Assembly (NCBI RefSeq): GCF_011045215.1
Contig: NZ_CP049201.1
Reading direction: 5' to 3' (one strand)
Length of the DNA: 64,000 nt
Source: Escherichia coli
Lineage (GTDB): Bacteria > Pseudomonadota > Gammaproteobacteria > Enterobacterales > Enterobacteriaceae
The translations under genes were made by a program, and so were the position numbers. Below are positions 9,297-41,370 of this stretch, piece after piece. A model generated the notes under the pieces. The model saw nothing but the letters and a program-made list of their open reading frames with translations. It ran no database searches and was not told the DNA's origin. How positions within the stretch are numbered: the first letter of the stretch is position 1; every line of letters starts with the position of its first letter.

Positions 9297-9323
9297 AGCC
9301 CGCAACATTGCGGGCTTTGTCTT
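9297..9323 (+). terminator. plus-strand hairpin and T-tract just inside the prophage left end
   Basis: agcccgcaacattgcgggct followed by ttgtctt; in the circularised phage this would lie downstream of int across attP. Confidence 0.45.
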
Positions 9324-10113
9324 ATGGTTCGATCGCCGTTTTGAGACGTTGTGTTGCTACATCAAAATAATGATCACTGGTTTCTATACCAATAAATTTG
9401 CGTCCTGCTTTCAGTGCAGCCACACCCGTTGTCCCTGACCCCATAAAAGGATCAAGGACTGTTCCACCACTATTCGCAGTCCTGACCAGCTCTGCCATAA
9501 GTTCTTCTGGCTTTCCGGTCGGGTGCATTTTCTTTGACGGGATAACCGGGAACGTCATGCAGCCGTCGAACGGACCTGAAGGCGATTTATCTAAATGGCC
9601 TTTGCTGCCCCAGACGATGTATTCACACTGATGCCGGAAATACCCCGTATGGGGTGTTCGTGACCCCCTTCCTTTGTTCCACACAATGATTCCACGCCAT
9701 GTAAAACCGCTGGCCTGAAACGCATCGGTTAAAGCTGGTAGTTGTCGCCAGTCAGTAAATACCAGGGCATAACCGCCCGGTCTGACCGCGCGGTGTGCCT
9801 GTGCCATCCATAATTGTGTCCAGTAAGCCCACGAACGGGCGTCCATGTTTTCACCCGCGAACCCATCAAAGCGGTGAAGGTTCCCGCCGTTCAGATATTT
9901 TGCATGGCTGCCCTGGTTGGTGCGTCCGGCCTTGTGTGTCGCACCCGAACTGTAAGGCGGGTCAGTGATTAAAGCATCAATGCTTTCTGGCTCAATCAGC
10001 GGCAATATTTCCAGCGCATTCCCACGACAGAGCGTGGCATTGTCAGTCTGATAAACCTTAGTGTGTTCCGGTGTATGTGCTGGTTGGTGCTGGATTGCGA
10101 TCCCCACGGTCAT
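9322..10113 (-). CDS. DNA amino-methyltransferase (N6-adenine or N4-cytosine)
   Basis: 263 aa; DPPY motif (ITDPPYSSG) precedes the AdoMet motif (FMGSGTTG), i.e. permuted motif order; AGGAG 3 nt before the ATG, lying inside the com 3' end. Confidence 0.85.
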   Translation of the reverse strand: MTVGIAIQHQPAHTPEHTKVYQTDNATLCRGNALEILPLIEPESIDALITDPPYSSGATHKAGRTNQGSHAKYLNGGNLHRFDGFAGENMDARSWAYWTQLWMAQAHRAVRPGGYALVFTDWRQLPALTDAFQASGFTWRGIIVWNKGRGSRTPHTGYFRHQCEYIVWGSKGHLDKSPSGPFDGCMTFPVIPSKKMHPTGKPEELMAELVRTANSGGTVLDPFMGSGTTGVAALKAGRKFIGIETSDHYFDVATQRLKTAIEP

Positions 10114-10255
10114 AACTCCTCATGTGTGTGGGGTGCTCGATGGCTCTCGTTATCTGGTTAAGTGTTTTGCAGCGCGGACATTTTATTTCAATGTAGTGAA
10201 ATGAGGCGCGGGCAAGTAGTTTGTTGCAATTTTTGCATCGTACATTTTGCGTCAT
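10058..10255 (-). CDS. com: Com-like zinc-finger translational regulator
   Basis: MTQNVRCKNCNKLL...IEIKCPRCKTLN resembles Mu Com as recalled (CxxC...CxxC); 3' end overlaps the methyltransferase start by about 56 nt. Confidence 0.75.
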   Translation of the reverse strand: MTQNVRCKNCNKLLARASFHYIEIKCPRCKTLNQITRAIEHPTHMRSYDRGDRNPAPTSTYTGTH

Positions 10256-10302
10256 TTGCGGCACCTCTTGTGTGGTTACTGCTGCCGATATGATAGCAAA
10301 TC

Positions 10303-10337
10303 GATCGTTTTTATCGATCGGATTTATTGCATCGATC
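10303..10337 (-). promoter_or_regulatory. cluster of three GATC sites upstream of com
   Basis: Three TCGATC motifs at 10303, 10315 and 10334 within 35 bp, 40-80 bp upstream of the com start. Confidence 0.5.
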
Positions 10338-10365
10338 TGTTATGTCTATTGCTCATGGATGGGGA

Positions 10366-10401
10366 TACCAAAAAGAAAACCCGCAGTTTTTACGCTGCGG
10401 G
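10366..10401 (-). terminator. rho-independent terminator (minus strand)
   Basis: On the minus strand cccgcag-cgtaaaaa-ctgcggg followed by ttttctttttgg. Confidence 0.6.
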
Positions 10402-10490
10402 CTTGTTGTTCATGTCTGTGAGATAGGGTGCCTTATCGACCTTACCCTGACAACCGATTGACGGGGGATTGCTCCCCCGTCGCGGTTTCC

Positions 10491-10631
10491 TTACTGCTTA
10501 CACTGTAAGAACGCCGCAAACTCCGCTCCCCAGAAGCTCATCCGTATTTCGCATAGCGAACCGTGCAGCATCCAGATGATGAGGATTGCCGTCACGCAGA
10601 ACGTGATGGCCGTAAGCGATTTTTGCGACAT
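10491..10631 (-). CDS. hypothetical 46-aa hydrophobic peptide
   Basis: MSQKSLTAITFCVTAILIIWMLHG...; AAGGAG 8 nt upstream of the ATG; below the ORF-track cutoff so read directly from sequence. Confidence 0.3.
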   Translation of the reverse strand: MSQKSLTAITFCVTAILIIWMLHGSLCEIRMSFWGAEFAAFLQCKQ

Positions 10632-10821: not shown

Positions 10822-11082
10822 TTAATTCTGAGGTAAAGGCAAACTCATCTGATTGTTTCCCCTGTGTGAAGCTGGCAGATCATGCCATGGGATACCTTCT
10901 GATGAGTGAACGCCGGAGGCGTGTTTCGATGTAAATTTATGGAAAGCTTCCAGTGTTGAGAAGCATACGCCGCATTCCAGGTTGTTACACTGGTAATACT
11001 TTTGCCGCACGGTGTTTGAATCATTTTCCGGACGACTGGTGCGGATACGGGCAGATGCGCCACAAAGCGGACAACGGAACAT
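10822..11082 (-). CDS. ogr: Ogr/Delta-type zinc-finger late-gene activator
   Basis: MFRCPLCGASARIRTSR...YYQCNNLECGVCF resembles the P2 Ogr Cys4 finger as recalled. Confidence 0.85.
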   Translation of the reverse strand: MFRCPLCGASARIRTSRPENDSNTVRQKYYQCNNLECGVCFSTLEAFHKFTSKHASGVHSSEGIPWHDLPASHRGNNQMSLPLPQN

Positions 11083-11124
11083 AGCGACCTCCCTTAACGT
11101 GGTGCTGTCGCTATTCTAAGTTCC

Positions 11125-12234
11125 TCACTCTGTTTCCGCTATCCATTCCGGGATTTTTGCCTCAAGCTCAAGCTGTGTGGTAAAGCCACTGTTATCAATG
11201 GTGTGCTCGGCTTTTGCAATAATCCAGTCCTGATTATCAATCTCGCTTTTAAATCCTGTTACCGTGCCATGCATTTCGGGGTAGAGTTCTGCGCGTCCGC
11301 GTGCCAGTGTGATGGAGAATGATGCGGCTCCGCGTTGTAGTTGTTGCCACTTTGCCGCCGCTGCGCGTCTTGCTGCCTGCTCGTTCTGATAAGTCTTGCG
11401 TAACACAAACACATTGCCTTCCGCGCCTTCCATATAATCACCTTCACGGCTGCTGCTTTTCTCTTTTTTCGGTTTTGGCGGTTTGCGGCGTTTCACGCTG
11501 ACTTTTTTCTTTTTCCCGTAATTAAGATCAAGCCAGTAAGCGCGTACCCCCGTATACGCCTCGCGGTCAGCAATGCGGAACTGATGGCGATCGCCGCTGC
11601 TGCGTGTGATGGCGAACGAGGGCAACGGCTGGCCCTGTGCGTTCACGCCACCGCCGGGCATGATGAATAACAGATTACCGCTTTTTACCGTGGTGATTGC
11701 GCCCAGCATTTCCGCCATGCGCGTAAGGAAGGACATGTCACTTTCTTCGGTCTGGTCGGCGTGGTCGATTTCGATATCCATCAGCATTTCGCTGATTTGC
11801 GGTTTCAGACCGTACCGATGAGCGATGGCGGATACCACACGCTCAACGGTCACATCATGCCAGGACATCTCACGTTTAACGTTAAATTCATCCCGAAAAT
11901 CTGCGCTTCTGGCTGAAACAGTCAGCCTGTCCGGCGGTCCTTCGTGAGCGATTTCATCAACAATGTAAGTGCCTTTTTCTGTCAGCGGTTCTCCTTTCCA
12001 GCCAATGAGAACCGTCAGGCGCGCGCCCCGTGGCGGTAGCTGCAACTGACCATCCGCATCATCCAGCGTGATGGTGAGCTGGTCCGCCTCAAATCCCCGG
12101 TTGTCGGTCAGTGACAGGCTCATCAGGCGCTCGGCCACGCCTGACAGCGTTTTACCCTCCGCGAGAATATCAAAATCCGGCATTTTCACGGGGTCTGTGC
12201 CCTGACTGAGCAATTGCATGGTGGTATCGGTCAT
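11125..12234 (-). CDS. D: tail protein D (gpD / late control D family)
   Basis: Listed ORF 11125..12366; GGAGGG precedes ATG at 12234 (MTDTTMQLL..); lysine-rich central segment; C-terminal NSGFTTQLELEAKIPEW as in gpD. Confidence 0.85.
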   Translation of the reverse strand: MTDTTMQLLSQGTDPVKMPDFDILAEGKTLSGVAERLMSLSLTDNRGFEADQLTITLDDADGQLQLPPRGARLTVLIGWKGEPLTEKGTYIVDEIAHEGPPDRLTVSARSADFRDEFNVKREMSWHDVTVERVVSAIAHRYGLKPQISEMLMDIEIDHADQTEESDMSFLTRMAEMLGAITTVKSGNLLFIMPGGGVNAQGQPLPSFAITRSSGDRHQFRIADREAYTGVRAYWLDLNYGKKKKVSVKRRKPPKPKKEKSSSREGDYMEGAEGNVFVLRKTYQNEQAARRAAAAKWQQLQRGAASFSITLARGRAELYPEMHGTVTGFKSEIDNQDWIIAKAEHTIDNSGFTTQLELEAKIPEWIAETE

Positions 12235-12391
12235 CTGTTCCCTCCCTGTGCGGCATGGTCGCATGTGCGTGCGGAGGGGGTTACTGCTTTTTGTTGTCGC
12301 CGTGGCGGGAGAACGGCGCAGGGGTGAGATTACGCGCGTGGTGGGTGATGATTGTTGCCGAATCATTTAACGGATACAAGGGGCTGAAGCT

Positions 12392-13576
12392 ATGAGTGAA
12401 ACTCGTTTTCATGGTGCCCGTGTTACGGAAAATACCGACCTGGTAACAGCGATTAACGATGTTGATTCCAGCGTTATCGGTATCGTGGCAACGGCGGATG
12501 ATGCGGACGCGAAGCTGTTCCCGCTGAACAAGCCCACACTGCTGACCCGCGTCAATGACGTGCTGGGAAAATGCGGGACAACGGGGACGCTTTATCGTGC
12601 GCTTAAGGCCATCGCAGACCAGGTGAGCACAAAGGTGATCGTCGTTCGCGTGGCTGAACACAAAGAAGAAGACGGAAAAACGCAGGATCAACTGGTTATC
12701 GGTGGTTCTGAATCTGACGGCAGCTATACGGGGATGTATGCGCTGCTTGTTGCAGAGCAGGATGAAAGCATCGGATACCGTCCGCGTATTCTGGCCGCGC
12801 CGGAGCTGGACACGGAGGCGGTAACAAAATCCCTGTGCGTGATTGCGGGTAAACTGCGCGCGTTTGTGTATGCCTCATGTCACGGCTGTAACACGATGGC
12901 TGAGGCGATTACCTACCGCCAGAAATTCAACGAACGTGAGGTGATGCTCTTATGGCCGGACTTCATCGCCTACAACCCGAAAAGTGGCAAAAACGAAACG
13001 TTCCCCGCGCCTGCCTATGCGTGCGGCCTTCGTGCGTACATTGACCATGAGCAGGGATGGCACAAATCACTGTCCAACGTTCCGGTTAAAAATGTGCTGG
13101 GGATGTCGAGGCATGTGTTCTGGTCGTTGCAGGCCGAAGACAGCGATGCCAACAGCCTCAACAACAAAGAAATCACGACCATTATTCGTCGCAACGGGTT
13201 CCGCTTCTGGGGCAACCGCACACCGGAAACGAACGCCTACATCTTTGAGGTGTATACCCGAACCGCACAGGTGCTGGCTGATTCAATTGCGGAAGCGCAG
13301 TTTGAAACCATCGACAGTCCACTGACGCCTGCGAACGTGAAGGATGTTATCAGTGCCATCAGGGCAAAACTGGATTCACTGGTTACTGCCGGGAAACTGA
13401 TTGGCGCGGAGTGCTGGTATGACGTGGTGGATAACAGCACCACGGATTTACGTCAGGGGCGTGTGCGTATTCGCTACAAATATACGCCTGTTCCCCCGCT
13501 GGAAGACATGGAGCTTTACCAGACGTTTACTGATGAATACTTTGAACCCGCATTTGCGGTGCTGGGAGGTGCCTGA
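12392..13576 (+). CDS. FI: contractile tail sheath protein FI
   Basis: 394 aa; strong resemblance to P2 gpFI (..FPLNKP..RNGFRFWGNRT..YTPVPPLE..). Confidence 0.92.
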   Translation: MSETRFHGARVTENTDLVTAINDVDSSVIGIVATADDADAKLFPLNKPTLLTRVNDVLGKCGTTGTLYRALKAIADQVSTKVIVVRVAEHKEEDGKTQDQLVIGGSESDGSYTGMYALLVAEQDESIGYRPRILAAPELDTEAVTKSLCVIAGKLRAFVYASCHGCNTMAEAITYRQKFNEREVMLLWPDFIAYNPKSGKNETFPAPAYACGLRAYIDHEQGWHKSLSNVPVKNVLGMSRHVFWSLQAEDSDANSLNNKEITTIIRRNGFRFWGNRTPETNAYIFEVYTRTAQVLADSIAEAQFETIDSPLTPANVKDVISAIRAKLDSLVTAGKLIGAECWYDVVDNSTTDLRQGRVRIRYKYTPVPPLEDMELYQTFTDEYFEPAFAVLGGA

Positions 13577-14088
13577 TGGCTGTGCCAAAACATCTTCGCT
13601 TTTTTACGCTGTTTGTGGATGGTGAAAACGAAGTGGGTAAGGTGACGTCCGTCACTCTGCCTAAGCTGACGCGCAAAACCGACAGCTACCGGGGTGGCGG
13701 CATGATGGGTGCGGTAAGTATTGATCTCGGTCTGGACGACTCCGCGCTTGATGCGAGCTTTGTCATGGGGGGCGCAGTTCGTGAGCTGTTCCTTAAGTAT
13801 GGCGGCACGATTGACGGCACGCTGCTGCGTTTTGCGGGTGAATACTACACCGATGCAGAAAGCGACCTGTATGAAGTCGAAATGCGCGGACGTGTGACGG
13901 AAATTGATATGGGGGAAGCCAAACAGGGCGAAGCCACATCACACACTTACGCCATTAAAAACACCTACTACAAGCTGAGTGTTAACGATCGCCCGTTGTG
14001 GGAGATTGACCTGCTGAACTTCATTTACCGGAAGGACGGCAAGGACATTGTGCCCGATCGCATCCGTTCCGCGCTTGGGCTTGGCTGA
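13576..14088 (+). CDS. FII: tail tube protein FII
   Basis: 170 aa; VTLPKLTRK..YRGGGM motif of P2 gpFII. Confidence 0.9.
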   Translation: MAVPKHLRFFTLFVDGENEVGKVTSVTLPKLTRKTDSYRGGGMMGAVSIDLGLDDSALDASFVMGGAVRELFLKYGGTIDGTLLRFAGEYYTDAESDLYEVEMRGRVTEIDMGEAKQGEATSHTYAIKNTYYKLSVNDRPLWEIDLLNFIYRKDGKDIVPDRIRSALGLG

Positions 14089-14142
14089 TAAGTAATATGC
14101 AGGCGGCGCAGTGCGTCGCCTCTGACTGAAAGGAGTTTCCTG

Positions 14143-14508
14143 ATGAAAGAGACGAAAAACATCGATACCGAAAACACGGTAGTTACTGACACTGTGAAAG
14201 AAACCAGTGAGCGTGGCGTAAAACTTACCCAACCAATTGAGCGAGGCGGCGAAAAAATCACGTATGTGGAGATCACCGGGGCTATTGAGCAGGCTGGATC
14301 TCTGCGAGATTTGTCGCTGTCTGATGTGCTGAATCTGAAAGCGGAATCCATGTTTACGCTGCTGTCACGCGTGACATCACCGCGACTGGATGAAGTGACG
14401 ATCAAAAAAATGGCATCCCGTGACTTTATTCAGTTATGTGTGGTTGCCGTAAATTTTTTGAGCGGTGCGGACTCTGGCGGGAAGAACGAACAGGCGACGG
14501 AAGCCTGA
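14143..14508 (+). CDS. E: tail assembly chaperone gpE
   Basis: 121 aa ORF immediately upstream of the tape-measure gene; overlapped by a -1 frame extension. Confidence 0.8.
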   Translation: MKETKNIDTENTVVTDTVKETSERGVKLTQPIERGGEKITYVEITGAIEQAGSLRDLSLSDVLNLKAESMFTLLSRVTSPRLDEVTIKKMASRDFIQLCVVAVNFLSGADSGGKNEQATEA

Positions 14509-14672
14509 TCACGGTTGTGTGCTTTGAGCACATAGAAGACTTTGTGGCGGATATTGCCGCCATTTTTAACTGGTCGCCCGCCGAAATCTTCATGATGACG
14601 CCCGGCGAAGTGGTTAGCTGGCGTGAGCGGGCGGCACTTCGCAGCGGGAATGCAGACAATGAAGACTCTTGA
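14436..14672 (+). CDS. E': E' extension, translated as an E+E' fusion by -1 frameshift
   Basis: ORF in the -1 frame relative to E, overlapping the E 3' end and the T 5' end; conserved arrangement in long-tailed phages. Confidence 0.7.
   Translation: MCGCRKFFERCGLWREERTGDGSLITVVCFEHIEDFVADIAAIFNWSPAEIFMMTPGEVVSWRERAALRSGNADNEDS
14454..14460 (+). other. programmed -1 ribosomal frameshift slippery site (TTTTTTG) producing E+E'
   Basis: aaa-ttt-ttt-g within gpE; the -1 frame continues ..FFERCGLWREERTGDG.. to a stop at 14672. Confidence 0.75.
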
Positions 14673-17466
14673 TATCCGGGTCGCTTTCAGCGCCGTTGAC
14701 AGGCTGACCCGGCCTGCCGAAAACGCCCGCCGCCTGATGGGGCAGTTTGGTGACTCCATCCAGCGAACGCAGGGGGCGATCAAAAATCTCGAGCGTCAGG
14801 CGCGTTCATTTGAGCGCGCCCGTGACGCTGTCAGTAAAGCGGATGCTGGCATATTGAAAGCACGACGCCAGCTTAACGCCCTTAATCAGTTACAACGCAC
14901 GGGTACAGTGCTCAGCGAAAAACAACAAAAGCTGATGCAGCAGTTAAGCACCCGGCTTGAACGCCTGAATGAATCGCGCACACGTGAAATTCAGAAAATG
15001 CGGGAGCTTGGCGGAGAGCTGAAACGCCACGGCATTTCCCTGACAGGCAGCGATAACACCATCCAGCAGGCCATCAGACGCACCGAACAGTACAACAACC
15101 AGCTTGAACGCGAACGGCAGGCGCTTGCGCGTGTAACGCGGGCGCGTGAGCGGTATTCGCGCGTGCAGGAAACCGCGGGAAAACTGAAAACAGGTGGTGC
15201 GCTGGCAATTGGTGCGGCAGCGGCGGGCGGCTATGCTGCCGGGCGTTTTTTGCAGCCTGCGATCGGGTTCGGGAAAGAGATGTCCCGCGTTCAGGCGCTG
15301 ACGCGAATCGACCAGAACAGCCCACAGTTTAAGGCGCTGCGTGAGCAGGCGTTAAAACTTGGCTCTGAAACGCAGTTCACCGCTGGAGATGCCGCCAGTG
15401 GACAGGCATTTCTTGCAATGGCTGGCTTCACACCACAGGCCATTCAGGCTGCGCTTCCCGGTGTGCTGAGCATGGCAACGGCTGGCGGTATGGATCTCGG
15501 TGAGACGGCGGATATTGGCTCAAACATCCTGACGCAGTTCGGCCTTTCTGCCGACCAGATGGACCGGGTCGGTGACACGCTCACCGCAGCGTTTACCCGT
15601 ACCAACACTGACCTTCGCGCACTGGGCGAAACCATGAAATATGCAGGTCCGGTGGCGGGCAAGCTGGGAATATCGCTGGAGCAGGCCGCAGCGATGGCGG
15701 GCGTGCTGGCGAATATGGGTATCAGGGGAAGTGATGCCGGGACGGCAATGCGTGCCAGCCTGGCTCGTCTGGCATCACCGCCAAAGGCGGCAGCAGAGGC
15801 GCTGAAAGAGCTTGGTGTGGCAGTCTCTGACGCGAACGGCAAAATGCGCCCGATGGAGGATGTGCTGGCCGACCTTTATAAAGCCACCCGCAAATACGGG
15901 GAAGTTGACCGGGTATCGTTCTTTAAGGACATTGCCGGAGAAGAGGCTTTCACATCGTTTATGGCGCTCGTTGATGCAGCGGGTGACGGTTCCTTACCTA
16001 AACTGAGAAAAGAACTTGAAGGCGCGCGCGGTGAGGCTGAACGCACAGCAAAGGTTATGGCCAACAACCTTGACGGCGATCTGAAATCACTCGGCAGTGC
16101 ATGGGAAGGGTTGCGCATCCGCATTGCAGATCTGATTGACGGTCCGCTGCGTTCTGTCACGCAGTGGCTCACACGGGTGGTATCAAGGGTGACGGCGCTG
16201 GCGCAGGCCCATCCGACACTGACGCGCCAGCTACTGATAGCAGGCGGTGCGTTGCTGGCAATGACTGCAACGGTTGGCTCGTTGTCGCTGGCTATTGGTG
16301 TGCTTGCTGGCCCGCTGGCAAAACTGCGTCTTGGTTTTTCTCTCCTGACCGGATCAATGAATGCTGTCAGGGTCCTGCCAGCACTATGGGGAATGGTGAC
16401 GGGTTCCGTTTCTTTGCTGGGAGGTGCTATCGGGGCGCTGTTCAGTCCGGTTGGTCTTATCGTGGCTGCGCTTGCCGGAGCTGCCGTTCTTATCTGGAAA
16501 TACTGGGATCCCATCAGGGCATTTTTTGCCGGGGTGTTCAGCGGGATTATGGAAAGGCTGATCCCGTTGCGCGAAACCTTTGAACAGTTTGGTCCTGTTT
16601 TTGACGCAATCGGAAGCGGGATCAGCCAGGTGTTTAACTGGTTTAAATCGCTGCTGTCACCGATGGAGTCCAGCAAGGAAACGCTGGATAAATGTACCAG
16701 TGCTGGCGAGATATTCGGTAACGTTCTTGGTGGCGCGTTACAGCTTGTTCTGACGCCTGCAAAAATGTTGCTGGATACGCTGGCGTGGATACTTGAAAAA
16801 CTCGGTGTTCTTCCGGATGAAGCGGAAAGGGCGAGAAAGAAAATCGAAGACGCACAGCGTGCGGCCATTCTTCAGGACAAGGTTGCCTTGCTTCAGGGGG
16901 ACCTGGCGAAAATCAATCCGCCGAAGCCTGTGGAAAATGGCAATGGCACCGGAGGTGATAAACCCAAAGACAACAAACCGCTCACAGACAGCAATACCGG
17001 GACGCTACGCAGACTCAGCAAAATTGCTGATAACACAGGTAAGCTGGTTGATGAGACGAAAAAACGCATTGGCCCCGGCGATATTGTCTTTAAGAACCTG
17101 CCCCGCGCACTTGCTGTTCGTGGGGAGTGGCAGGAGCGGAAGATTGCGCAGGTCAGTAAGCCTGCCCCCGCAATTAATATCACACCCGTGGTCCCGGCTC
17201 CGCTGCCTCCGGCGCTGGTCCCTGTTGTTGCGGCCAGCTCCCGCCCGGTGGCGGAGGCTATACGATCTCCAGTGGCATCAGTTCCTGTAACTTCCCGTAA
17301 CCGGGAGCCTGTTGCCTCCGGATTTGGTGGTGAAATTCATGTTCATCTGCATAACGTTGTTACGCAGAATCCCCGCGAACTGGCGAAACTAGTCGGTGAA
17401 ATGGTCAGGGCAGAAATGGAACGGCGCGCCCGTGCCGGGCGTGGCAGTTTTTACGATAAAGATTGA
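14623..17466 (+). CDS. T: tail tape measure protein T
   Basis: 947 aa, coiled-coil N-terminal region, Gly/Ala-rich hydrophobic middle; position between E/E' and U. Confidence 0.9.
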   Translation: MSGRHFAAGMQTMKTLDIRVAFSAVDRLTRPAENARRLMGQFGDSIQRTQGAIKNLERQARSFERARDAVSKADAGILKARRQLNALNQLQRTGTVLSEKQQKLMQQLSTRLERLNESRTREIQKMRELGGELKRHGISLTGSDNTIQQAIRRTEQYNNQLERERQALARVTRARERYSRVQETAGKLKTGGALAIGAAAAGGYAAGRFLQPAIGFGKEMSRVQALTRIDQNSPQFKALREQALKLGSETQFTAGDAASGQAFLAMAGFTPQAIQAALPGVLSMATAGGMDLGETADIGSNILTQFGLSADQMDRVGDTLTAAFTRTNTDLRALGETMKYAGPVAGKLGISLEQAAAMAGVLANMGIRGSDAGTAMRASLARLASPPKAAAEALKELGVAVSDANGKMRPMEDVLADLYKATRKYGEVDRVSFFKDIAGEEAFTSFMALVDAAGDGSLPKLRKELEGARGEAERTAKVMANNLDGDLKSLGSAWEGLRIRIADLIDGPLRSVTQWLTRVVSRVTALAQAHPTLTRQLLIAGGALLAMTATVGSLSLAIGVLAGPLAKLRLGFSLLTGSMNAVRVLPALWGMVTGSVSLLGGAIGALFSPVGLIVAALAGAAVLIWKYWDPIRAFFAGVFSGIMERLIPLRETFEQFGPVFDAIGSGISQVFNWFKSLLSPMESSKETLDKCTSAGEIFGNVLGGALQLVLTPAKMLLDTLAWILEKLGVLPDEAERARKKIEDAQRAAILQDKVALLQGDLAKINPPKPVENGNGTGGDKPKDNKPLTDSNTGTLRRLSKIADNTGKLVDETKKRIGPGDIVFKNLPRALAVRGEWQERKIAQVSKPAPAINITPVVPAPLPPALVPVVAASSRPVAEAIRSPVASVPVTSRNREPVASGFGGEIHVHLHNVVTQNPRELAKLVGEMVRAEMERRARAGRGSFYDKD

Positions 17467-17472
17467 GGAGTC

Positions 17473-17967
17473 ATGGCCATGATGATGATCTACGGCATGT
17501 TTGTTTTTGAGCTGCGCACGCTGCCGCATCAGCAGTTACAGCAAAACAAAAGCTGGCGGCATGTGAAAAATGAACGCGTTAACCGTTCAGCAAGCTGGCA
17601 GTATATCGGTGCAGGTGATGATCGCATCGTTCTTTCTGGTGTGCTTTATCCTGAAATTACAGGTGGCGAAGTGTCGCTGTCGCTGCTGACCACGCAGGCG
17701 TATACAGGACGACCCTGGCCTTTGATTGATGGTGTCGGGCAGATTTACGGCATGTATGTCCTGACCGGAACGAATACGACCCGTTCCGAGTTTGATCGCT
17801 ACGGTAAGGCGAAAAAGATAGAATTTTCACTGACCCTTGAACGCTGTGATGAGGATTTGCGGGAGCGCCTGCAATCCTCATCGTTCAGTGATATGCTGTC
17901 CGGCTTCAAAGATAAGGTCACATCATCCCTTAACAGCGCGGCCAGCTCCGTTAAAGGGCTGTTTTGA
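17473..17967 (+). CDS. U: tail protein U
   Basis: 164 aa; MMMIYGMFVFELRTLPHQ..SWRH resembles the P2 gpU N-terminus. Confidence 0.85.
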   Translation: MAMMMIYGMFVFELRTLPHQQLQQNKSWRHVKNERVNRSASWQYIGAGDDRIVLSGVLYPEITGGEVSLSLLTTQAYTGRPWPLIDGVGQIYGMYVLTGTNTTRSEFDRYGKAKKIEFSLTLERCDEDLRERLQSSSFSDMLSGFKDKVTSSLNSAASSVKGLF

Positions 17968-17974
17968 TTAACGC

Positions 17975-18004
17975 AAAACCGCTAATGGTCAGATTAGCGG
18001 TTTT
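17975..18004. terminator. bidirectional hairpin terminator between convergent U and invertase genes
   Basis: aaaaccgctaat-ggtcag-attagcggtttt: perfect inverted repeat flanked by an A-run and a T-run. Confidence 0.6.
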
Positions 18005-18611
18005 CATTTTCCTGAGTCTGCCTGGTTGTTTCTTCAGCCTGTATATCGCCTACAGGGTGATAACGATAAATCGTCGATATGCCGATGCCGTAAATGATCG
18101 CCAGTTGTTTCCTGTCATGACCGTTTTTGATCAGCCTTGCTATTTGCTCATGCTGTTCTTTTGTCAGCTTCGGGCGACGTCCGCCTGTGCGCCCCCGTGC
18201 GCGCGCTGCCGCCAGTCCGGCCAGTGTACGTTCAACAATTAATTCACGTTCCATTTCAGCCAGGGCACCCATCACGTGGAAGAAAAAACGCCCCATTGGA
18301 GAAGATGTATCTATGCTGTCGGTCAGACTGCGAAAATTAATCCCTCGCTCCCGTAGTTCTCCGACGAGAGAAATCAGATGTTTCATGCTTCGCCCAAGGC
18401 GATCCAGTTTCCAGACAACCAGCGTGTCACCTTTTTGAAGCCGCTTTAAAGCGCGTTTTAATCCCGGTCGGTCTGTCTTTGTCCCGCTTAATTTATCTTC
18501 AAATATTTGTTCACATCCTGCACAAACAAGAGCGTTTCGTTGCAGGTCTGTATTCTGGTCATTTGTTGATACCCTTACATAACCAATCAGCACACTGAAT
18601 CTCCCGTCCAA
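17994..18611 (-). CDS. serine recombinase, DNA invertase (Gin/Pin/Cin/Hin family)
   Basis: ..LIGYVRVSTNDQNTDLQRNAL.. catalytic-Ser N-terminus and C-terminal HTH; true start may be the GTG at 18593 (GGGAG upstream). Confidence 0.92.
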   Translation of the reverse strand: MDGRFSVLIGYVRVSTNDQNTDLQRNALVCAGCEQIFEDKLSGTKTDRPGLKRALKRLQKGDTLVVWKLDRLGRSMKHLISLVGELRERGINFRSLTDSIDTSSPMGRFFFHVMGALAEMERELIVERTLAGLAAARARGRTGGRRPKLTKEQHEQIARLIKNGHDRKQLAIIYGIGISTIYRYHPVGDIQAEETTRQTQENENR

Positions 18612-18647
18612 AAGCGCAAATCATGCCATGCAGGCCGGAAACGGCCA

Positions 18648-18673
18648 TTATCTAAAACCTCGGTTTACAGGAA
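18648..18673. repeat. gix/hix-like recombination site (left end of invertible segment)
   Basis: Reverse complement reads TTCCTGTAAACCGAGGTTTTAGATAA, close to the remembered Gin gix consensus; inverted copy at 21716..21741. Confidence 0.8.
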
Positions 18674-19618
18674 ACGGTAAATCAGGCTTCTGGCGCATTA
18701 CAGAAAAACCAGAACGGCGCAGATATTCCGGGAAAAGATACCTTCACCAAAAATATTGGGGCCTGCCGCGCATATAGCGCATGGCTGGATATTGGTGGCG
18801 ATAGTCAGGTCTGGACAACCGCGCAATTTATTTCGTGGCTGGAGAGTCAGGGAGCATTTAACCATCCTTACTGGATGTGCAAAGGCTCATGGGCTTATGC
18901 AAATAATAAGGTCATTACAGATACAGGTTGCGGAAATATTTGTCTTGCAGGTGCTGTGGTGGAAGTTATTGGCACTCGCGGCGCAATGACCATACGCGTT
19001 ACCACGCCGAGCACGTCCAGCGGTGGAGGAATTACTAACGCTCAATTCACTTATATTAATCATGGTGATGCTTACGCTCCTGGCTGGCGACGAGACTACA
19101 ACACGAAAAATCAACAACCTGCATTTGCTTTAGGGCAAACAGGAAGCACTGTCGGAAATGATAAAGCTGTTGGCTGGAACTGGAATAGCGGGGTCTATAA
19201 CGCAAATATTGGTGGCGCATCGACATTAATCCTCCACTTCAATATGAATACGGGGAGCTGCCCTGCTGCACAGTTCCGCGTGAATTACAGAAATGGCGGA
19301 ATCTTTTATCGTTCAGCGCGTGATGGTTATGGCTTTGAAGCTGACTGGTCAGAGTTTTACACCACAACCCGCAAACCCTCTGCGGGAGATGTTGGTGCAT
19401 ATACGCAGGCAGAATGTAACTCAAGGTTTATTACAGGTATTCGCCTTGGCGGTCTGTCATCTGTTCAGACATGGAATGGTCCCGGCTGGTCTGACAGGTC
19501 AGGTTATGTCGTTACGGGTTCAGTTAACGGAAACCGTGATGAATTAATTGATACAACTCAGGCAAGGCCAATTCAGTATTGCATTAATGGGACGTGGTAT
19601 AACGCGGGGAGTATTTAA
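18674..19618 (+). CDS. alternative (currently silent) tail-fibre C-terminal exon
   Basis: Frame is open from the crossover site ([22 protein letters not shown]..) with no start codon of its own; would fuse in frame to the H constant region after inversion; listed ORF 18875..19618 is its downstream part. Confidence 0.75.
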
Positions 19619-19620
19619 CG

Positions 19621-20154
19621 ATGATGCACTTAAAAAACATTACTGCTGGCAACCCTAAAACAAAAGAGCAATACCAGCTAACGAAACAATTTAACATCAA
19701 ATGGCTTTATTCAGAGGATGGAAAAAACTGGTATGAGGAACAAAAGAATTTCCAGCCAGACACTTTGAAAATGGTCTATGACCATAACGGCGTTATTATT
19801 TGTATTGAAAAGGATGTTTCAGCAATTAATCCGGAAGGCGCAAGCGTCGTTGAATTACCTGATATTACAGCAAATCGCCGTGCTGACATTTCGGGTAAAT
19901 GGATGTTCAAAGATGGCGTAGTGGTAAAGCGAACTTATACCGAGGAAGAGCAGAGGCAGCAGGCGGAAAATGAAAAGCAAAGCCTGCTACAGCTCGTCAG
20001 GGATAAAACCCAGCTATGGGACTCACAGCTACGGCTGGGCATCATTTCCGACGAGAATAAACAAAAATTAACCGAGTGGATGCTCTATGCGCAGAAAGTC
20101 GAATCCACAGACACCTCCAGCCTGCCAGTAACGTTTCCAGGACAACCAGAATGA
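19621..20154 (+). CDS. tail fibre assembly protein, alternative copy (G'/U'-type)
   Basis: 177 aa, [19 protein letters not shown]..; paralogue of the 20183..20710 product with a diverged C-terminus. Confidence 0.85.
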
Positions 20155-20182: not shown

Positions 20183-20710
20183 TTATTCAGGCTTTTGTGG
20201 CCATTCAGGATTTGCCGTATCCACACGGCTGACCAGAACACTGTAGCGTTCCCATGACTCCAGTCGTGTGCGTTCCTCATCCGTCGCCATATTCAGCCTG
20301 ACAGCGCGTTCCAGTGGCTGAATAACGCTTTCAGCTTCGGAAAGTAACGCAGCCTTTTGTGATTCGGCCTGTTGTTGTTGCTCGTCTGCCGTATAAATCC
20401 GTTTAACTACAGCTCCATCCTTAAACATCCACTTTCCTGAACCATCAGCGCGGCGGTTGGCTGTAATATCGGGAACCTCAACGACGCTAAAACCTTCAGG
20501 GTTAAGCGTGGAGGCATCTTTAGTAATGGCGACAATAATATTATTTGCATCGTAAACAATCTTTATTGTGTCTGGCTGAAAGTTTTTCACTTCCTCATAC
20601 CAGTTTTTTCCGTCCTCAGAGTAAAGCCAGATAACTCCGTGTTTCTTTGTTAACTCATACTGTTCCAGTGTTTTAGCGTTACCCGCTTTTATGTTCTTTA
20701 AGTGCATCAT
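20183..20710 (-). CDS. G: tail fibre assembly protein (gpG-type), expressed orientation
   Basis: 175 aa immediately downstream of H on the same strand. Confidence 0.85.
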
Positions 20711-20711
20711 A

Positions 20712-22874
20712 TTAAACGCTCGCTACATTATACCAGGTGCCATTTATATACTTTTGAACGGGTCTGTAATAAACGCCCGCTATATTATCGGCAGAGTTGG
20801 AGCCTGTATCCTGAACATTAATACCAGACAATACATGACCTGACGGGCACTGGAAATTCCATGTTTGCCAGTTGTTCACTCCATAATATTGCTGTGAACC
20901 AAGTCGAACATCTTTCACATATCTGGAATCAAAATTGCCATAATTGCCGGGAATAACTTGCGCACCGCAAAGCCAGTTCCCGTTATTATCCATGTACGCC
21001 TGACCATCGGTGCCATTGGCTGTCCTTGAGTTATTAATCATGTAGATGCCAAATTGCTTATTTCCCAGACCGCCAATCATAAATTTTCGGTCGGCATGGT
21101 CCTGACGGAGCAAGGCCTGGGCGCTATCAGTGTTAACTATATTTTTCCCAAAGATAGCGTTGTTATCGCGCATCTGAATCCACATACCATTACCGCTGTT
21201 AATAGCAAAACGGTCTGAAAGTGTTTCTCCTGAAACATTAAGGCCACGCCCCATCGAAACAGCGCCAGTAGCGTTATTAATCCATAATGGCCTTAATCCG
21301 TTATAAGTCCCCATGTTGTCACCGGAGTTTGTCAACATGAAGTATGTATTTGAACCATCATTACGAATAAAGAATCCGTAACTACCATAAGCAATACGTA
21401 GGCCGTTTGCTGATTTTGATATGACTTCGCCATTTACAATGGCATTGACAAGAACATACAAAGCATCCCATTTAAGATTCATCAGGTCTTTTGTTGTGGT
21501 GCCTTGTTTGCTTCTCCATTTGAAATATTCATTGCCGTTGTCGCCTGTTTCAAACCACATGTATGAATCAGTATCGCTGTCGGCATCATTTTTAAATCCA
21601 ATCTTTGCCCAGTCAGTATTTCGAATCCAGGCAAGGATTGAGTCGTTTTCAAAAGTAAGTCCACCGGACAAGGTATCGCCTGTCTTTTGAACGGCGTTAC
21701 CAGCCTTGTTTACCGTTTCCTGTAAACCGAGGTATTCGATAACGGCGGCAACGGTCGATTTCGCAAGAATATCCCGCCCAACTTTTGTCAGGGTTGCCAA
21801 GCTGGCAACATCATTCCCCGTAAAATACGGAAACCTGTCTGCCGCAGTAGCAAGCCCGGCCAGCGCCGTCAGGGTGGCATCTTTCGGTTGCTTACCCGCA
21901 AGCGCGTTAGTCATGGTGGTCGCAAAATTCGGGTCGTTGCCCAACGCCGCAGCCAGCTCGTTCAGCGTATTCAGTGCGTCAGGCGACGAGTCCACGAGGG
22001 CAGCGATCGCAGCCATAACATAAGCCGTGCTTGCGATCTGAGTATTGTTAGTACCTTTTGGCGCAGTTGGTGTTGTTGGTGTTCCGGTCAGTGCCGGGCT
22101 GTTTAATGGGGCTTTCTTGTTCGTTTCATCCATTACCGCCTTAACCGCTTTTGGTGTCGCTGCCAGCGTTTCAGACGTGCTGTTGGTTGCACTACTAAGC
22201 TGGACAAGGCCTTTTCGCGTTGTAGTGGCGTCCTGAGCGGTATATTTTCCGTTAGCCAGGTCATACGCGGCCTTTACTGCTTTCGGCGTTGCAGCCTGCG
22301 TTTCAGAATCGTTGTTAGTGGCGCTACTGAGTTGAACAAAGCCTTTTGCGGTCAGCGAGGCATCCGGGTGACGTCGTGACTGTTCATGCTCTTTCAGTTT
22401 GTCATTCACGTAATCCACTGTGGCCATAACCATGGTGTTATCCACGGTAAGCGCCACGGTGGCAGTGCTGGATACGGTCAGAATGGTGCGAAATGTTTGT
22501 GCACGTCCGGACCCTTCGGCAACGGCTGGCTTGTAACTTTCGGCAGTATTGCCCACCGCGATCAAATCGCCGTGCTCATCAAACACACCAATTTCCCGGA
22601 TCCAGAATCCGCCCGTTTCAGGAGGAATAACCAGCTCTGCAATAATGCGGTTCTGATGTGTTGCGTCCAGGATGATGCGATTAACAGTATGTCGCCACAC
22701 CTCATGCACCAGACGGGTCTGCTTACTGTCTGGTGTGGGCAATGTACCGCCACCGTCGCCCACGGCCATATGAGTCAGGCGGACAGGCTTACCATCTGGC
22801 GCGGCTGCCTGAGCTAATTTTTTGGCACCCGTATCGGTGATAACGGTTTTAAATTTTCGTGTTGTGGTACTCAT
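20712..22874 (-). CDS. H: tail fibre protein H (constant N-terminus 22874..21742, variable C-terminus 21715..20712)
   Basis: 720 aa; N-terminus [34 protein letters not shown] resembles P2 gpH; a gix-like site lies in frame inside the gene. Confidence 0.9.
21716..21741. repeat. gix/hix-like recombination site (right end, inside H)
   Basis: TTCCTGTAAACCGAGGTATTCGATAA; inverted repeat of 18648..18673, differing only near the centre. Confidence 0.8.
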
Positions 22875-40745: not shown

Positions 40746-41227
40746 TGCGGCAATCCTCTTGTTACAGATGTGCGAAGGCCTCCCGCCGCAAGGTGCAGGA
40801 AAGGCCCGGAACAGGAATTAATGGAGTTTGTTTTGCTGCTGGATGAGCTGTTGAAGCTCGTGCAGATCATCCGCCAGATAGCTGAAAACAGAGGCGGAAT
40901 AAATGTTTGATAGTGCGTGGCTGCGCTCATGCCGCATATTGATGTGCATGATTTGCGCGACGCGTGATGCGCGGGAAAGTCTGCGGTTGATTTCAGTCTG
41001 GATGTGACGACGCTCCGCGATAGCGCGGTGCTGTTTGCGGTCTGCCATGGTGTGGCCTCTTTGCTCGGTGATAGAAATAACTCACCATCCAGAGTTGAGA
41101 ATCTCGGGGTGGCGAGACGTACAGGGTTCTCAACACCGGAGAGCAAAGAATCCGGCCCGACCGAAGTCGGCCCCGTACGCCCCGCCATAATTCTGACGCG
41201 AAAAAGACGTGGCAATACAGTACGCAC

Positions 41228-41248
41228 AAAAAAACCGCTTGCGCGGTT
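41228..41248 (-). terminator. rho-independent terminator (minus strand)
   Basis: On the minus strand aaccgcgcaagcggtt followed by TTTTTTT. Confidence 0.5.
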
Positions 41249-41370
41249 ATGCGCTTTGCTCTGTATCGGGTTGAGAATCCCGGCACCCGTTTTATGAGGT
41301 GCAGCGGAAATGTAACCTGACCGATTGAGGCATGGCAAGCGGTTTTTTTGTGTGTGCATGTTCTGGTTTC

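What the first reader, a model, noticed from the sequence alone, without database searches (positions are those of the whole stretch)
14436..14672. E/E' programmed -1 frameshift at TTTTTTG
The conserved tail-assembly chaperone frameshift is present, with the slippery heptamer at 14454..14460. The -1 frame extension overlaps the start of tape-measure gene T. This is expected biology and is useful mainly as a check on annotation.
Basis: partly seen in the sequence, partly recalled or inferred. Interest (0 to 1): 0.2.

Follow-up and report, generated by a model that had tools for sequence, protein, structure and literature searches.

The report
P2-type tail chaperone frameshift site
This is the ordinary, conserved -1 ribosomal frameshift that lets a P2-like prophage of E. 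coli make two versions of its tail-assembly chaperone from one gene; it is real but expected, and the only twist is that two overlapping slip sites are present, not one.

Summary
TTTTTTG lies at 14454..14460 in the phase T_TTT_TTG of a 121-aa gpE-like ORF (14143..14508), between the tail tube gene and the tape-measure gene of a P88-type (Xuanwuvirus, Peduoviridae) prophage. The -1 frame is open from 14424 to 14672, encodes a Pfam Phage_P2_GpE domain, and overlaps the tape-measure start (14659) by 14 nt.

The predicted 176-aa fusion aligns colinearly with P2 gpE+E' across the junction (E = 3e-25). The slip codons fall in the same alignment column in 11 of 12 divergent Peduoviridae. Downstream of the slip site, substitutions follow the -1 frame's wobble position, so that frame is the one under selection.

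Two refinements:
- A second canonical in-phase heptamer, A_AAT_TTT (14451..14457), overlaps the first. It is the only one left in the large sister clade (TTTTATG in 77 of 77 contigs), where E' is still conserved. Published E. coli data rank it as the more stimulatable of the two.
- Public records annotate E and E' as two separate CDSs, and the fusion is absent from a 15-billion-protein collection.

No downstream RNA stimulator was found. There is no experimental evidence for this phage. Expected biology; low interest.

The parts
14143..14508 (+). Zero-frame gene for the gpE-like tail assembly chaperone (121 aa), ending in TGA
   Evidence: ORF. phrog_103 'tail protein' 2.3e-35. Pfam Phage_TAC_7 scores only 17.2 bits, below the cut-off of 25. 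Homologous to P2 gpE. Annotated 'tail protein' in RefSeq and in the P88 record.
14421..14423 (+). TGA stop in the -1 frame; it sets the 5' limit of the stretch where a -1 slip can be productive (14424..14508)
14438..14446 (+). Weak SD-like element GTGTGGTTG, 8 nt upstream of TTTTTTG (possible weak stimulator; inconclusive)
   Evidence: Anti-SD duplex of -5.4 kcal/mol, within the top 8% of 9-mers in the gene. The corresponding zone is strong in 7 of 12 relatives, including P2.
14451..14457 (+). Upstream slippery heptamer A_AAT_TTT, in phase, overlapping the next one
   Evidence: It is the only in-phase heptamer in the 4B11/O25b-type sister clade. AAAUUUU gave 0.07 / 0.36 / 11.4 % frameshifting in E. 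coli reporters (Sharma 2014 Table S3).
14454..14460 (+).
   Evidence: The same heptamer occupies the same alignment column in P2, SEN5, KSP20, Shewanella M16-3, Yersinia 201.16, RSA1, Acidovorax Alfacinha1 and E. coli Br112.
14460..14672 (+). -1-frame extension (E') read after the slip, 70 codons plus TGA. With codons 1-106 of E it gives a 176-aa fusion
   Evidence: phrog_1756 2.1e-38 over residues 1-68. Substitutions concentrate at the -1-frame wobble position.
14544..14651 (+). Region encoding the Pfam Phage_P2_GpE domain (residues 29-64 of the extension)
   Evidence: PF06528, E = 1.9e-12, 46.9 bits against a cut-off of 23. Found in 12 of 12 fusions of relatives.
14659..17466 (+). Tape-measure gene (gpT homologue), in the same frame as E. 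Its start overlaps the end of E' by 14 nt
   Evidence: Pfam PhageMin_Tail 2.3e-58. Start as in the RefSeq annotation of identical DNA. ATG 14650 varies among close relatives.

Best explanation
Most ribosomes translating the gpE-like gene (14143..14508) terminate at TGA 14506..14508 and produce the 121-aa chaperone. A minority slip one base backwards on the tandem slippery run A_AAT_TTT_TTG (14451..14460) and continue in the -1 frame to TGA 14670..14672. This gives a 176-aa E+E' fusion whose C-terminal part is the GpE domain. The two products share their first ~105 residues and are made in a ratio fixed by the slip frequency. By analogy with P2 gpE/gpE+E' and lambda gpG/gpGT, the shared part would bind the tape-measure protein encoded immediately downstream, and the extension would recruit the tail tube protein. 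Neither product is expected in the finished virion. Shown here: the signal, its phase, its conservation and the selection on the -1 frame. Inferred: the slip itself, its frequency, which heptamer is used and the protein-protein contacts.
For: The in-phase heptamers lie inside the only productive stretch. The -1 extension carries Pfam GpE and phrog_1756. The predicted fusion aligns with P2 gpE+E' in a single HSP across the junction, with FL on FL (E = 3e-25). The P2 record annotates the E+E' join and the -1 site, and PMC3931495 summarises Christie et al. 2002. The slip column is shared by 11 of 12 divergent Peduoviridae; the twelfth has a relocated G_GGA_AAG. Between three Xuanwuvirus-type lineages, in the overlap 14461..14505, 6-7 of 11-12 differences fall on the -1-frame wobble position. 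Amino-acid differences there are 7 of 15 in the zero frame against 3-5 of 15 in the -1 frame. In the Br112 lineage, a -1-frame TAA lies directly 5' of TTTTTTG, so that lineage cannot use any -1-frame start upstream of the heptamer. In 75 contigs of the sister clade, E' is intact in 72, and 14 of 20 variable sites are at the -1 wobble position. The lambda gpG/gpGT mechanism is summarised in PMC5009743.
Against: There are no experimental data for this phage or genus. No downstream structure is more stable than shuffled sequence in any of the 12 lineages (z from -1.2 to +1.3). The nearest hairpins in the window lie about 30 and 55 nt downstream. The upstream SD-like element is weak here. In E. 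coli reporters without a stimulator, both heptamers shift at only 0.07-0.12 %, close to the background of 0.055 %. The real frequency may therefore be very low, or may depend on an unrecognised stimulator. The zero-frame E scores below the Pfam TAC_7 cut-off. RefSeq annotates E' as a separate CDS starting at GTG 14517.
Confidence: 0.85

Rival explanations
1. E' is a separate small gene translated by independent initiation, either at GTG 14517 (51 aa, as in RefSeq and the P88 record) or at ATG 14436 (78 aa, as in many GenBank records). No frameshift is involved.
For: Public annotation calls it this way. A GTG is present at the corresponding place in the three Xuanwuvirus-type lineages. A weak SD is not decisive, because the tape-measure start also has a weak one (-4.3 kcal/mol).
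Against: Both candidate starts have poor SD pairing (-3.8 and -5.8 kcal/mol, against -8.2 for E and -13.1 for FII). ATG 14436 is not conserved, and the Br112 lineage has a -1 stop directly before TTTTTTG. The -1 frame is under selection from the slip site onwards, upstream of GTG 14517. The linker ...ER.GDG... encoded in the overlap is conserved as far as Serratia KSP20. In P2, the homologous E' is described as lacking an RBS and as made through the frameshift.
Confidence: 0.07
2. The frame change happens during transcription. RNA polymerase stutters on the T6 run and adds one U, so a subset of mRNAs encodes the fusion directly (...NFFER...).
For: A homopolymeric T run is present. Some relatives have T7 (Zymomonas; Smp131). 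Sharma et al. note that U7 runs are avoided in all frames, possibly because of transcriptional slippage.
Against: Six T is short for efficient slippage (my own knowledge). The sister clade has only T4 (AAATTTTATG in 77 of 77 contigs) yet keeps E' intact and under selection. Mannheimia uses G_GGA_AAG, which has no homopolymer run. The strict phase of the heptamer across lineages is a requirement of ribosomal slippage, not of transcriptional slippage.
Confidence: 0.04
3. The signal is an inherited relic in a defective prophage and no longer has any function in this strain.
For: It was not tested whether the prophage in the window is inducible. Close relatives in other strains carry pseudogenes, for example a frameshifted portal gene in KSC9.
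Against: The slip region is identical in 79 of 80 close relatives, and the heptamers are kept in all 80. E' is under purifying selection. Near-identical sequences are deposited as genomes of phages P88, 500465-2 and PhiR44_2. All the tail ORFs in the window are intact.
Confidence: 0.04

Closest known systems
Bacteriophage P2 gpE / gpE+E' programmed -1 frameshift (Christie et al. 2002, J Bacteriol 184:6522; annotated in NC_001895)
   Same: The position is the same, between the tube gene (FII) and the tape-measure gene (T). The T_TTT_TTG heptamer falls in the same alignment column. The extension carries the same GpE domain and overlaps the start of T. The fusion is 31% identical over 150 aa.
   Different: E is 121 aa here against 91 aa in P2, and the fusion is 176 aa against 142 aa. 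The slip lies 48 nt before the E stop, against 21 nt in P2. A second overlapping heptamer, A_AAT_TTT, is present here. P2 has a strong SD-like TAAGGTGGT upstream, whereas the window has only a weak element. In P88-type phages the FI-FII-E-T-U block is on the opposite strand from D and ogr, so there is no single FETUD operon.
Phage lambda gpG / gpGT tail assembly chaperone frameshift (Levin et al. 1993; Xu et al. 2004, 2013, 2014)
   Same: The logic is the same. Two products share an N-terminus and are made at a fixed ratio by a -1 slip near the end of the gene just upstream of the tape-measure gene.
   Different: No sequence similarity was detected. Lambda uses G_GGA_AAG and has a non-contractile tail. 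The binding roles are shown for lambda and only inferred here.
Sister clade within Xuanwuvirus (P88_4B11, 520873, 503458, Citrobacter Shae_phiSM, E. coli O25b prophage)
   Same: The genes are the same, at about 88-89% nucleotide identity. The -1 ORF and the A_AAT_TTT heptamer are the same.
   Different: TTG is replaced by ATG, so T_TTT_TTG is lost (TTTTATG in 77 of 77 IMG/VR contigs). No SD-like element is present upstream.

Membership tests
P2-type E/E' tail assembly chaperone with programmed -1 frameshift | The gene lies immediately between the tail tube gene and the tape-measure gene | tested here: met
   FII-like tube gene 13576..14088 (Pfam Phage_tube 7.5e-47), E 14143..14508, tape-measure gene 14659..17466 (PhageMin_Tail 2.3e-58).
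P2-type E/E' tail assembly chaperone with programmed -1 frameshift | A canonical X_XXY_YYZ heptamer, in phase, lies near the 3' end of E inside the stretch where the -1 frame is open | tested here: met
   T_TTT_TTG at 14454..14460 and A_AAT_TTT at 14451..14457. The -1 frame is open over 14424..14672.
P2-type E/E' tail assembly chaperone with programmed -1 frameshift | The -1 extension encodes the GpE domain (Pfam PF06528) and ends overlapping the tape-measure start | tested here: met
   46.9 bits against a cut-off of 23. There is a 14-nt overlap with ATG 14659.
P2-type E/E' tail assembly chaperone with programmed -1 frameshift | The zero-frame part is homologous to gpE (Pfam PF10109 Phage_TAC_7) | tested here: inconclusive
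   The Pfam score of 17.2 bits is below the cut-off of 25. Homology is supported by BLASTP against P2 gpE+E' (3e-25, starting at residue 23 of E), by phrog_103 (2.3e-35), and by 10 of 12 aligned relatives matching TAC_7.
P2-type E/E' tail assembly chaperone with programmed -1 frameshift | The two-frame arrangement is conserved in relatives, with selection on the -1 frame | tested here: met
   12 of 12 lineages have an in-phase heptamer and an open -1 frame leading into GpE. Substitutions follow the -1-frame wobble position.
P2-type E/E' tail assembly chaperone with programmed -1 frameshift | The fusion protein is actually produced and is required for tail assembly | not testable with these tools
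   This needs mass spectrometry, reporter assays or genetics. It is reported for P2 only.
Stimulated -1 frameshift sites (dnaX / IS911 / IS3 type) | A stable hairpin or pseudoknot 5-9 nt downstream of the heptamer | tested here: not met
   The MFE of the 60 nt downstream is no lower than for shuffles in the window (z = +0.82) or in any relative. The nearest stems lie about 30 and 55 nt away.
Stimulated -1 frameshift sites (dnaX / IS911 / IS3 type) | An SD-like element about 6-17 nt upstream of the heptamer | tested here: inconclusive
   The window has a weak element (GTGTGGTTG, -5.4 kcal/mol, top 8% of the gene). The element is strong in 7 of 12 relatives and absent in the 4B11 type. The pattern is confounded by conserved Val/Gly codons.

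The most novel reading that the evidence does not exclude
Within one phage genus, the slip site has moved by one codon. The ancestral P2-type T_TTT_TTG is present alone in the Br112 lineage, with a strong upstream SD-like element. It coexists with A_AAT_TTT in the window/P88 type, and only A_AAT_TTT remains in the 4B11 type, with no SD-like element. The window would then be the intermediate state. In it, A_AAT_TTT could carry a substantial share of the frameshifting: it is about 15-fold more responsive to a stimulator in E. coli reporters and is strongly avoided in that phase in E. coli genes (z = -9.1). The product would then be ...NFFER... rather than ...NFLER.... This would be a natural example of slip-site turnover, with heptamer strength traded against stimulator strength.
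Probability: 0.4. Interest if true: 0.3.

Novelty: new member of a known kind. Interest (0 to 1): 0.15.

Why it matters
The main use is as an annotation check. In more than 1,400 complete E. coli genomes and in the P88-type phage records, this locus is annotated as two unrelated small CDSs. The 176-aa fusion, which is probably an essential assembly protein, is absent from protein databases. A secondary point is that the three natural variants of the slip region in one genus offer a ready-made comparison. They could be used to test how heptamer identity and upstream SD-like elements together set a low frameshift ratio in E. coli. Neither point changes what is understood about tail assembly.

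Tried and rejected
- Downstream stimulator: I folded 14461..14560 and the 60 nt downstream of the heptamer in 12 lineages. Nothing was more stable than shuffles, and nothing lay at the canonical 5-9 nt spacing.
- A7 run at 14404..14410 as an alternative slip site: rejected, because it is not in the X_XXY_YYZ phase and the -1 frame hits TGA at 14421.
- 80 IMG/VR relatives found with the E protein: all were 98-100% identical, so they only showed that the slip region is invariant. My first frame analysis of the 77 sister-clade contigs used an offset wrong by one base, and I redid it.
- NCBIfam gave no hit for E, E' or the fusion. A profile search of PDB sequences gave none either, so I attempted no structure-based argument.
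- Christie et al. 2002 could not be read. Its content is cited second-hand from PMC3931495 and from the NC_001895 annotation.
- Literature searches for Xuanwuvirus and for P2-like slippery sequences found nothing on this site.
- SD strength as an argument against independent E' initiation: it is only weakly informative, because the tape-measure start is just as poor.
- The record NZ_OW967003.1, fetched to annotate the right side of the window, carries the prophage at another chromosomal site. KSC9 is the colinear reference.

Full report
**Setting.** The window is E. coli chromosome carrying a P2-like prophage of the P88 type (genus Xuanwuvirus, family Peduoviridae).
- The region 13576..14700 is at least 99% identical to 354 complete E. 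coli genome records and is present in 1,374 of 5,426 genomes.
- The E/E' region is 99% identical to phages P88, 500465-2 and PhiR44_2.
- Gene content around the finding:

| Coordinates | Strand | Gene |
|---|---|---|
| 10822..11082 | - | ogr-like |
| 11125..12366 | - | gpD-like |
| 12392..13576 | + | sheath |
| 13576..14088 | + | tube |
| 14143..14508 | + | 121-aa ORF (E) |
| 14659..17466 | + | tape measure |
| 17473..17967 | + | gpU-like |
| 17994..18611 | - | DNA invertase |

**The observation.**
- TTTTTTG is at 14454..14460. In the frame of the 121-aa ORF the codons are AAT TTT TTG, so the heptamer has the phase T_TTT_TTG needed for tandem tRNA slippage.
- The -1 frame is closed by TGA at 14421 and then open to TGA at 14670..14672.
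- RefSeq places the tape-measure start at ATG 14659, so the extension overlaps it by 14 nt.
- TTTTTTG occurs 30 times on both strands of the window. One occurrence in phase within the 85-nt productive stretch therefore has a chance expectation of roughly 0.006.

**What the -1 frame encodes.**
- The 70 codons read after a slip match Pfam Phage_P2_GpE (1.9e-12, above the cut-off) and phrog_1756 over their whole length.
- The zero-frame protein matches phrog_103 strongly, but scores below the cut-off for Pfam Phage_TAC_7 (17.2 bits against 25).
- The predicted 176-aa fusion aligns with P2 gpE+E' in a single BLASTP segment that runs through the junction, with the FL slip residues aligned (31% identity, E = 3e-25).
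- The P2 record annotates E+E' as a joined CDS with a -1 site.
- PMC3931495 summarises Christie et al. 2002: E' overlaps T, lacks a ribosome-binding site, and is reached through a T6G slippery sequence.

**Conservation.**
- I reconstructed the fusion in 12 lineages from E. coli, Salmonella, Serratia, Yersinia, Shewanella, Ralstonia, Zymomonas, Mannheimia and Acidovorax, at 32-85% identity to the window's fusion.
- All 12 have an in-phase canonical heptamer inside the productive stretch, and all 12 have an open -1 frame leading into a GpE domain.
- In 11 of 12 the slip codons share one alignment column. Mannheimia has a relocated G_GGA_AAG.
- Among 80 close relatives the slip region is invariant, apart from one GTA>ATA change that keeps both heptamers.

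**Which frame is selected.** I compared three Xuanwuvirus-type lineages (window, O25b/4B11 type and Br112 type).
- In the overlap 14461..14505 they differ mostly at position 2 of the E frame, which is the wobble position of the -1 frame (6-7 of 11-12 differences). The same pattern holds in the purely -1-coding part downstream.
- The -1 peptide differs at 3-5 of 15 residues, and the zero-frame peptide at 7 of 15.
- So the -1 frame is translated from the slip site onwards, upstream of the GTG 14517 that RefSeq uses as the E' start.
- In the Br112 lineage, a -1-frame TAA lies directly before TTTTTTG, so no -1-frame start upstream of the heptamer can exist there.

**A refinement: two overlapping slip sites.**
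- The window reads GTA AAT TTT TTG, which also contains A_AAT_TTT at 14451..14457 in the correct phase.
- The three lineages differ at this spot:

| Lineage | Sequence | In-phase heptamers |
|---|---|---|
| Window / P88 type | GTA AAT TTT TTG | A_AAT_TTT and T_TTT_TTG |
| O25b / 4B11 type (P88_4B11, Citrobacter Shae_phiSM, O25b prophage) | GTA AAT TTT ATG | A_AAT_TTT only |
| Br112 type | GTT AAT TTT TTG | T_TTT_TTG only |

- The 4B11-type sister clade falls in the 80-90% identity band, which holds 544 of 1,449 matching E. coli records.
- All 77 IMG/VR contigs of that clade have TTTTATG. E' is intact in 72 of 75, and 14 of 20 variable sites lie at the -1 wobble position.
- Sharma et al. 2014 (PMC4066793) place H_HH.U_UU.Y motifs among the most efficient heptamers in E. 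coli. They list U_UU.U_UU.G as efficient only in the eukaryotic system.
- Their Table S3 gives these values:

| Heptamer | No stimulator | IS911 stimulators | IS3 pseudoknot | z-score in this phase, E. coli genes |
|---|---|---|---|---|
| UUUUUUG | 0.118 % | 0.247 % | 0.765 % | 0.14 |
| AAAUUUU | 0.070 % | 0.355 % | 11.4 % | -9.1 |

- The slip in the window may therefore use either heptamer or both. The products differ at one residue (NFLER against NFFER).

**Stimulators.**
- No downstream structure is more stable than shuffled sequence in the window (z = +0.82) or in any relative.
- The local stems lie about 30 and 55 nt downstream, too far for a canonical stimulator.
- Upstream, 7 of 12 lineages have an SD-like element in the top 3% of their gene (P2 has TAAGGTGGT). 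The window's element is weak (-5.4 kcal/mol) and the 4B11 type has none.
- This pattern is suggestive but rests on few lineages and is confounded by conserved Val/Gly codons.

**Rival explanations.**
- *Independent initiation of E'.* This is what public annotation implies. It is disfavoured by the selection pattern upstream of GTG 14517, by the Br112 stop, by poor SD pairing (although T's own SD is just as poor), and by the P2 precedent.
- *Transcriptional slippage on T6.* This is disfavoured because the sister clade keeps E' with only T4, and because the phase of the heptamer is strictly conserved.
- *A dead relic.* This is disfavoured by the purifying selection.

**Annotation.** Neither version of the fusion is present in the 15-billion-protein collection. 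The separate 121-aa and 78-aa proteins are.

**Verdict.** It is a conserved, expected feature of P2-like phages and an unannotated orthologue rather than a new mechanism. The only mildly new element is the tandem heptamer and the turnover of the slip site within the genus. Interest is low.

Noticed in passing
L098 543-549; L015 943-949; L004 1015-1021; loci L102-L178: The sister clade of this prophage (O25b/P88_4B11/Shae_phiSM type, about 88% identity) has lost TTTTTTG. It reads TTTTATG in 77 of 77 IMG/VR contigs and keeps only A_AAT_TTT, yet E' stays intact and under purifying selection.
   Followed up: yes
window 14438-14446; upstream zones of L003, L006, L009, L010, L011, L014, L099: SD-like elements 12-18 nt upstream of the heptamer are among the strongest in the gene in 7 of 12 lineages (P2: TAAGGTGGT). 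They are weak in the window and absent in the clade that has only A_AAT_TTT. This may reflect a trade-off between heptamer and stimulator, or may be a by-product of conserved Val/Gly codons.
   Followed up: partly
window 10822-18611: The gene order differs from P2. ogr and D are on the - strand, and FI-FII-E-E'-T-U are on the + strand, followed by a - strand invertase. The P2 'FETUD' operon is therefore split, with the FI-U block inverted relative to D/ogr. P88 has the same layout.
   Followed up: partly
window 17994-18611 and 18644-18705 / 21685-21746: A Gin/Cin-type serine DNA invertase (Pfam Resolvase 1.5e-50) lies next to tail-fibre genes. These are bracketed by 62-nt inverted repeats about 3 kb apart, with further inner inverted repeats (19621-19781 / 20550-20710). 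This is probably an invertible host-range segment.
   Followed up: partly
window 14544-14563: A terminator-like GC-rich hairpin followed by TTTT lies inside the E' coding region, over the conserved VADIAAIF motif. The common variants in close relatives (14549 G>A; 14560-61 CC>TT) weaken it or turn pairs into G-U. It is probably a by-product of the coding sequence.
   Followed up: no
window 41105-41192 (-) and 41228-41302 (-): Rfam matches to C4 antisense RNA (78.5 bits) and isrK Hfq-binding sRNA (63.1 bits) sit side by side in the early region of the prophage. They suggest a P1/P7-type antisense immunity or antirepressor control module in a P2-like phage.
   Followed up: no
window ~9322-10631 (-): The left end of the prophage, next to flk, carries a DNA methyltransferase with an overlapping Com-family regulator (an arrangement like Mu mom/com) and a hok/gef toxin gene. 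This is taken from the RefSeq annotation of colinear strain KSC9.
   Followed up: no
window 11125-12366 (-): The gpD-like ORF is continuous for 413 codons in the window. RefSeq calls only the last 266 codons ('VgrG/Pvc8 family') plus a pseudogene fragment, while the P88 record codons. This looks like a start-site or annotation inconsistency.
   Followed up: no
window 14143-14208: The first ~22 residues of E are an N-terminal extension absent from P2 gpE. The segment is replaced by unrelated sequence in the sister clade, where DNA similarity starts only at query base 67. It appears to be a variable, probably dispensable, leader segment.
   Followed up: no
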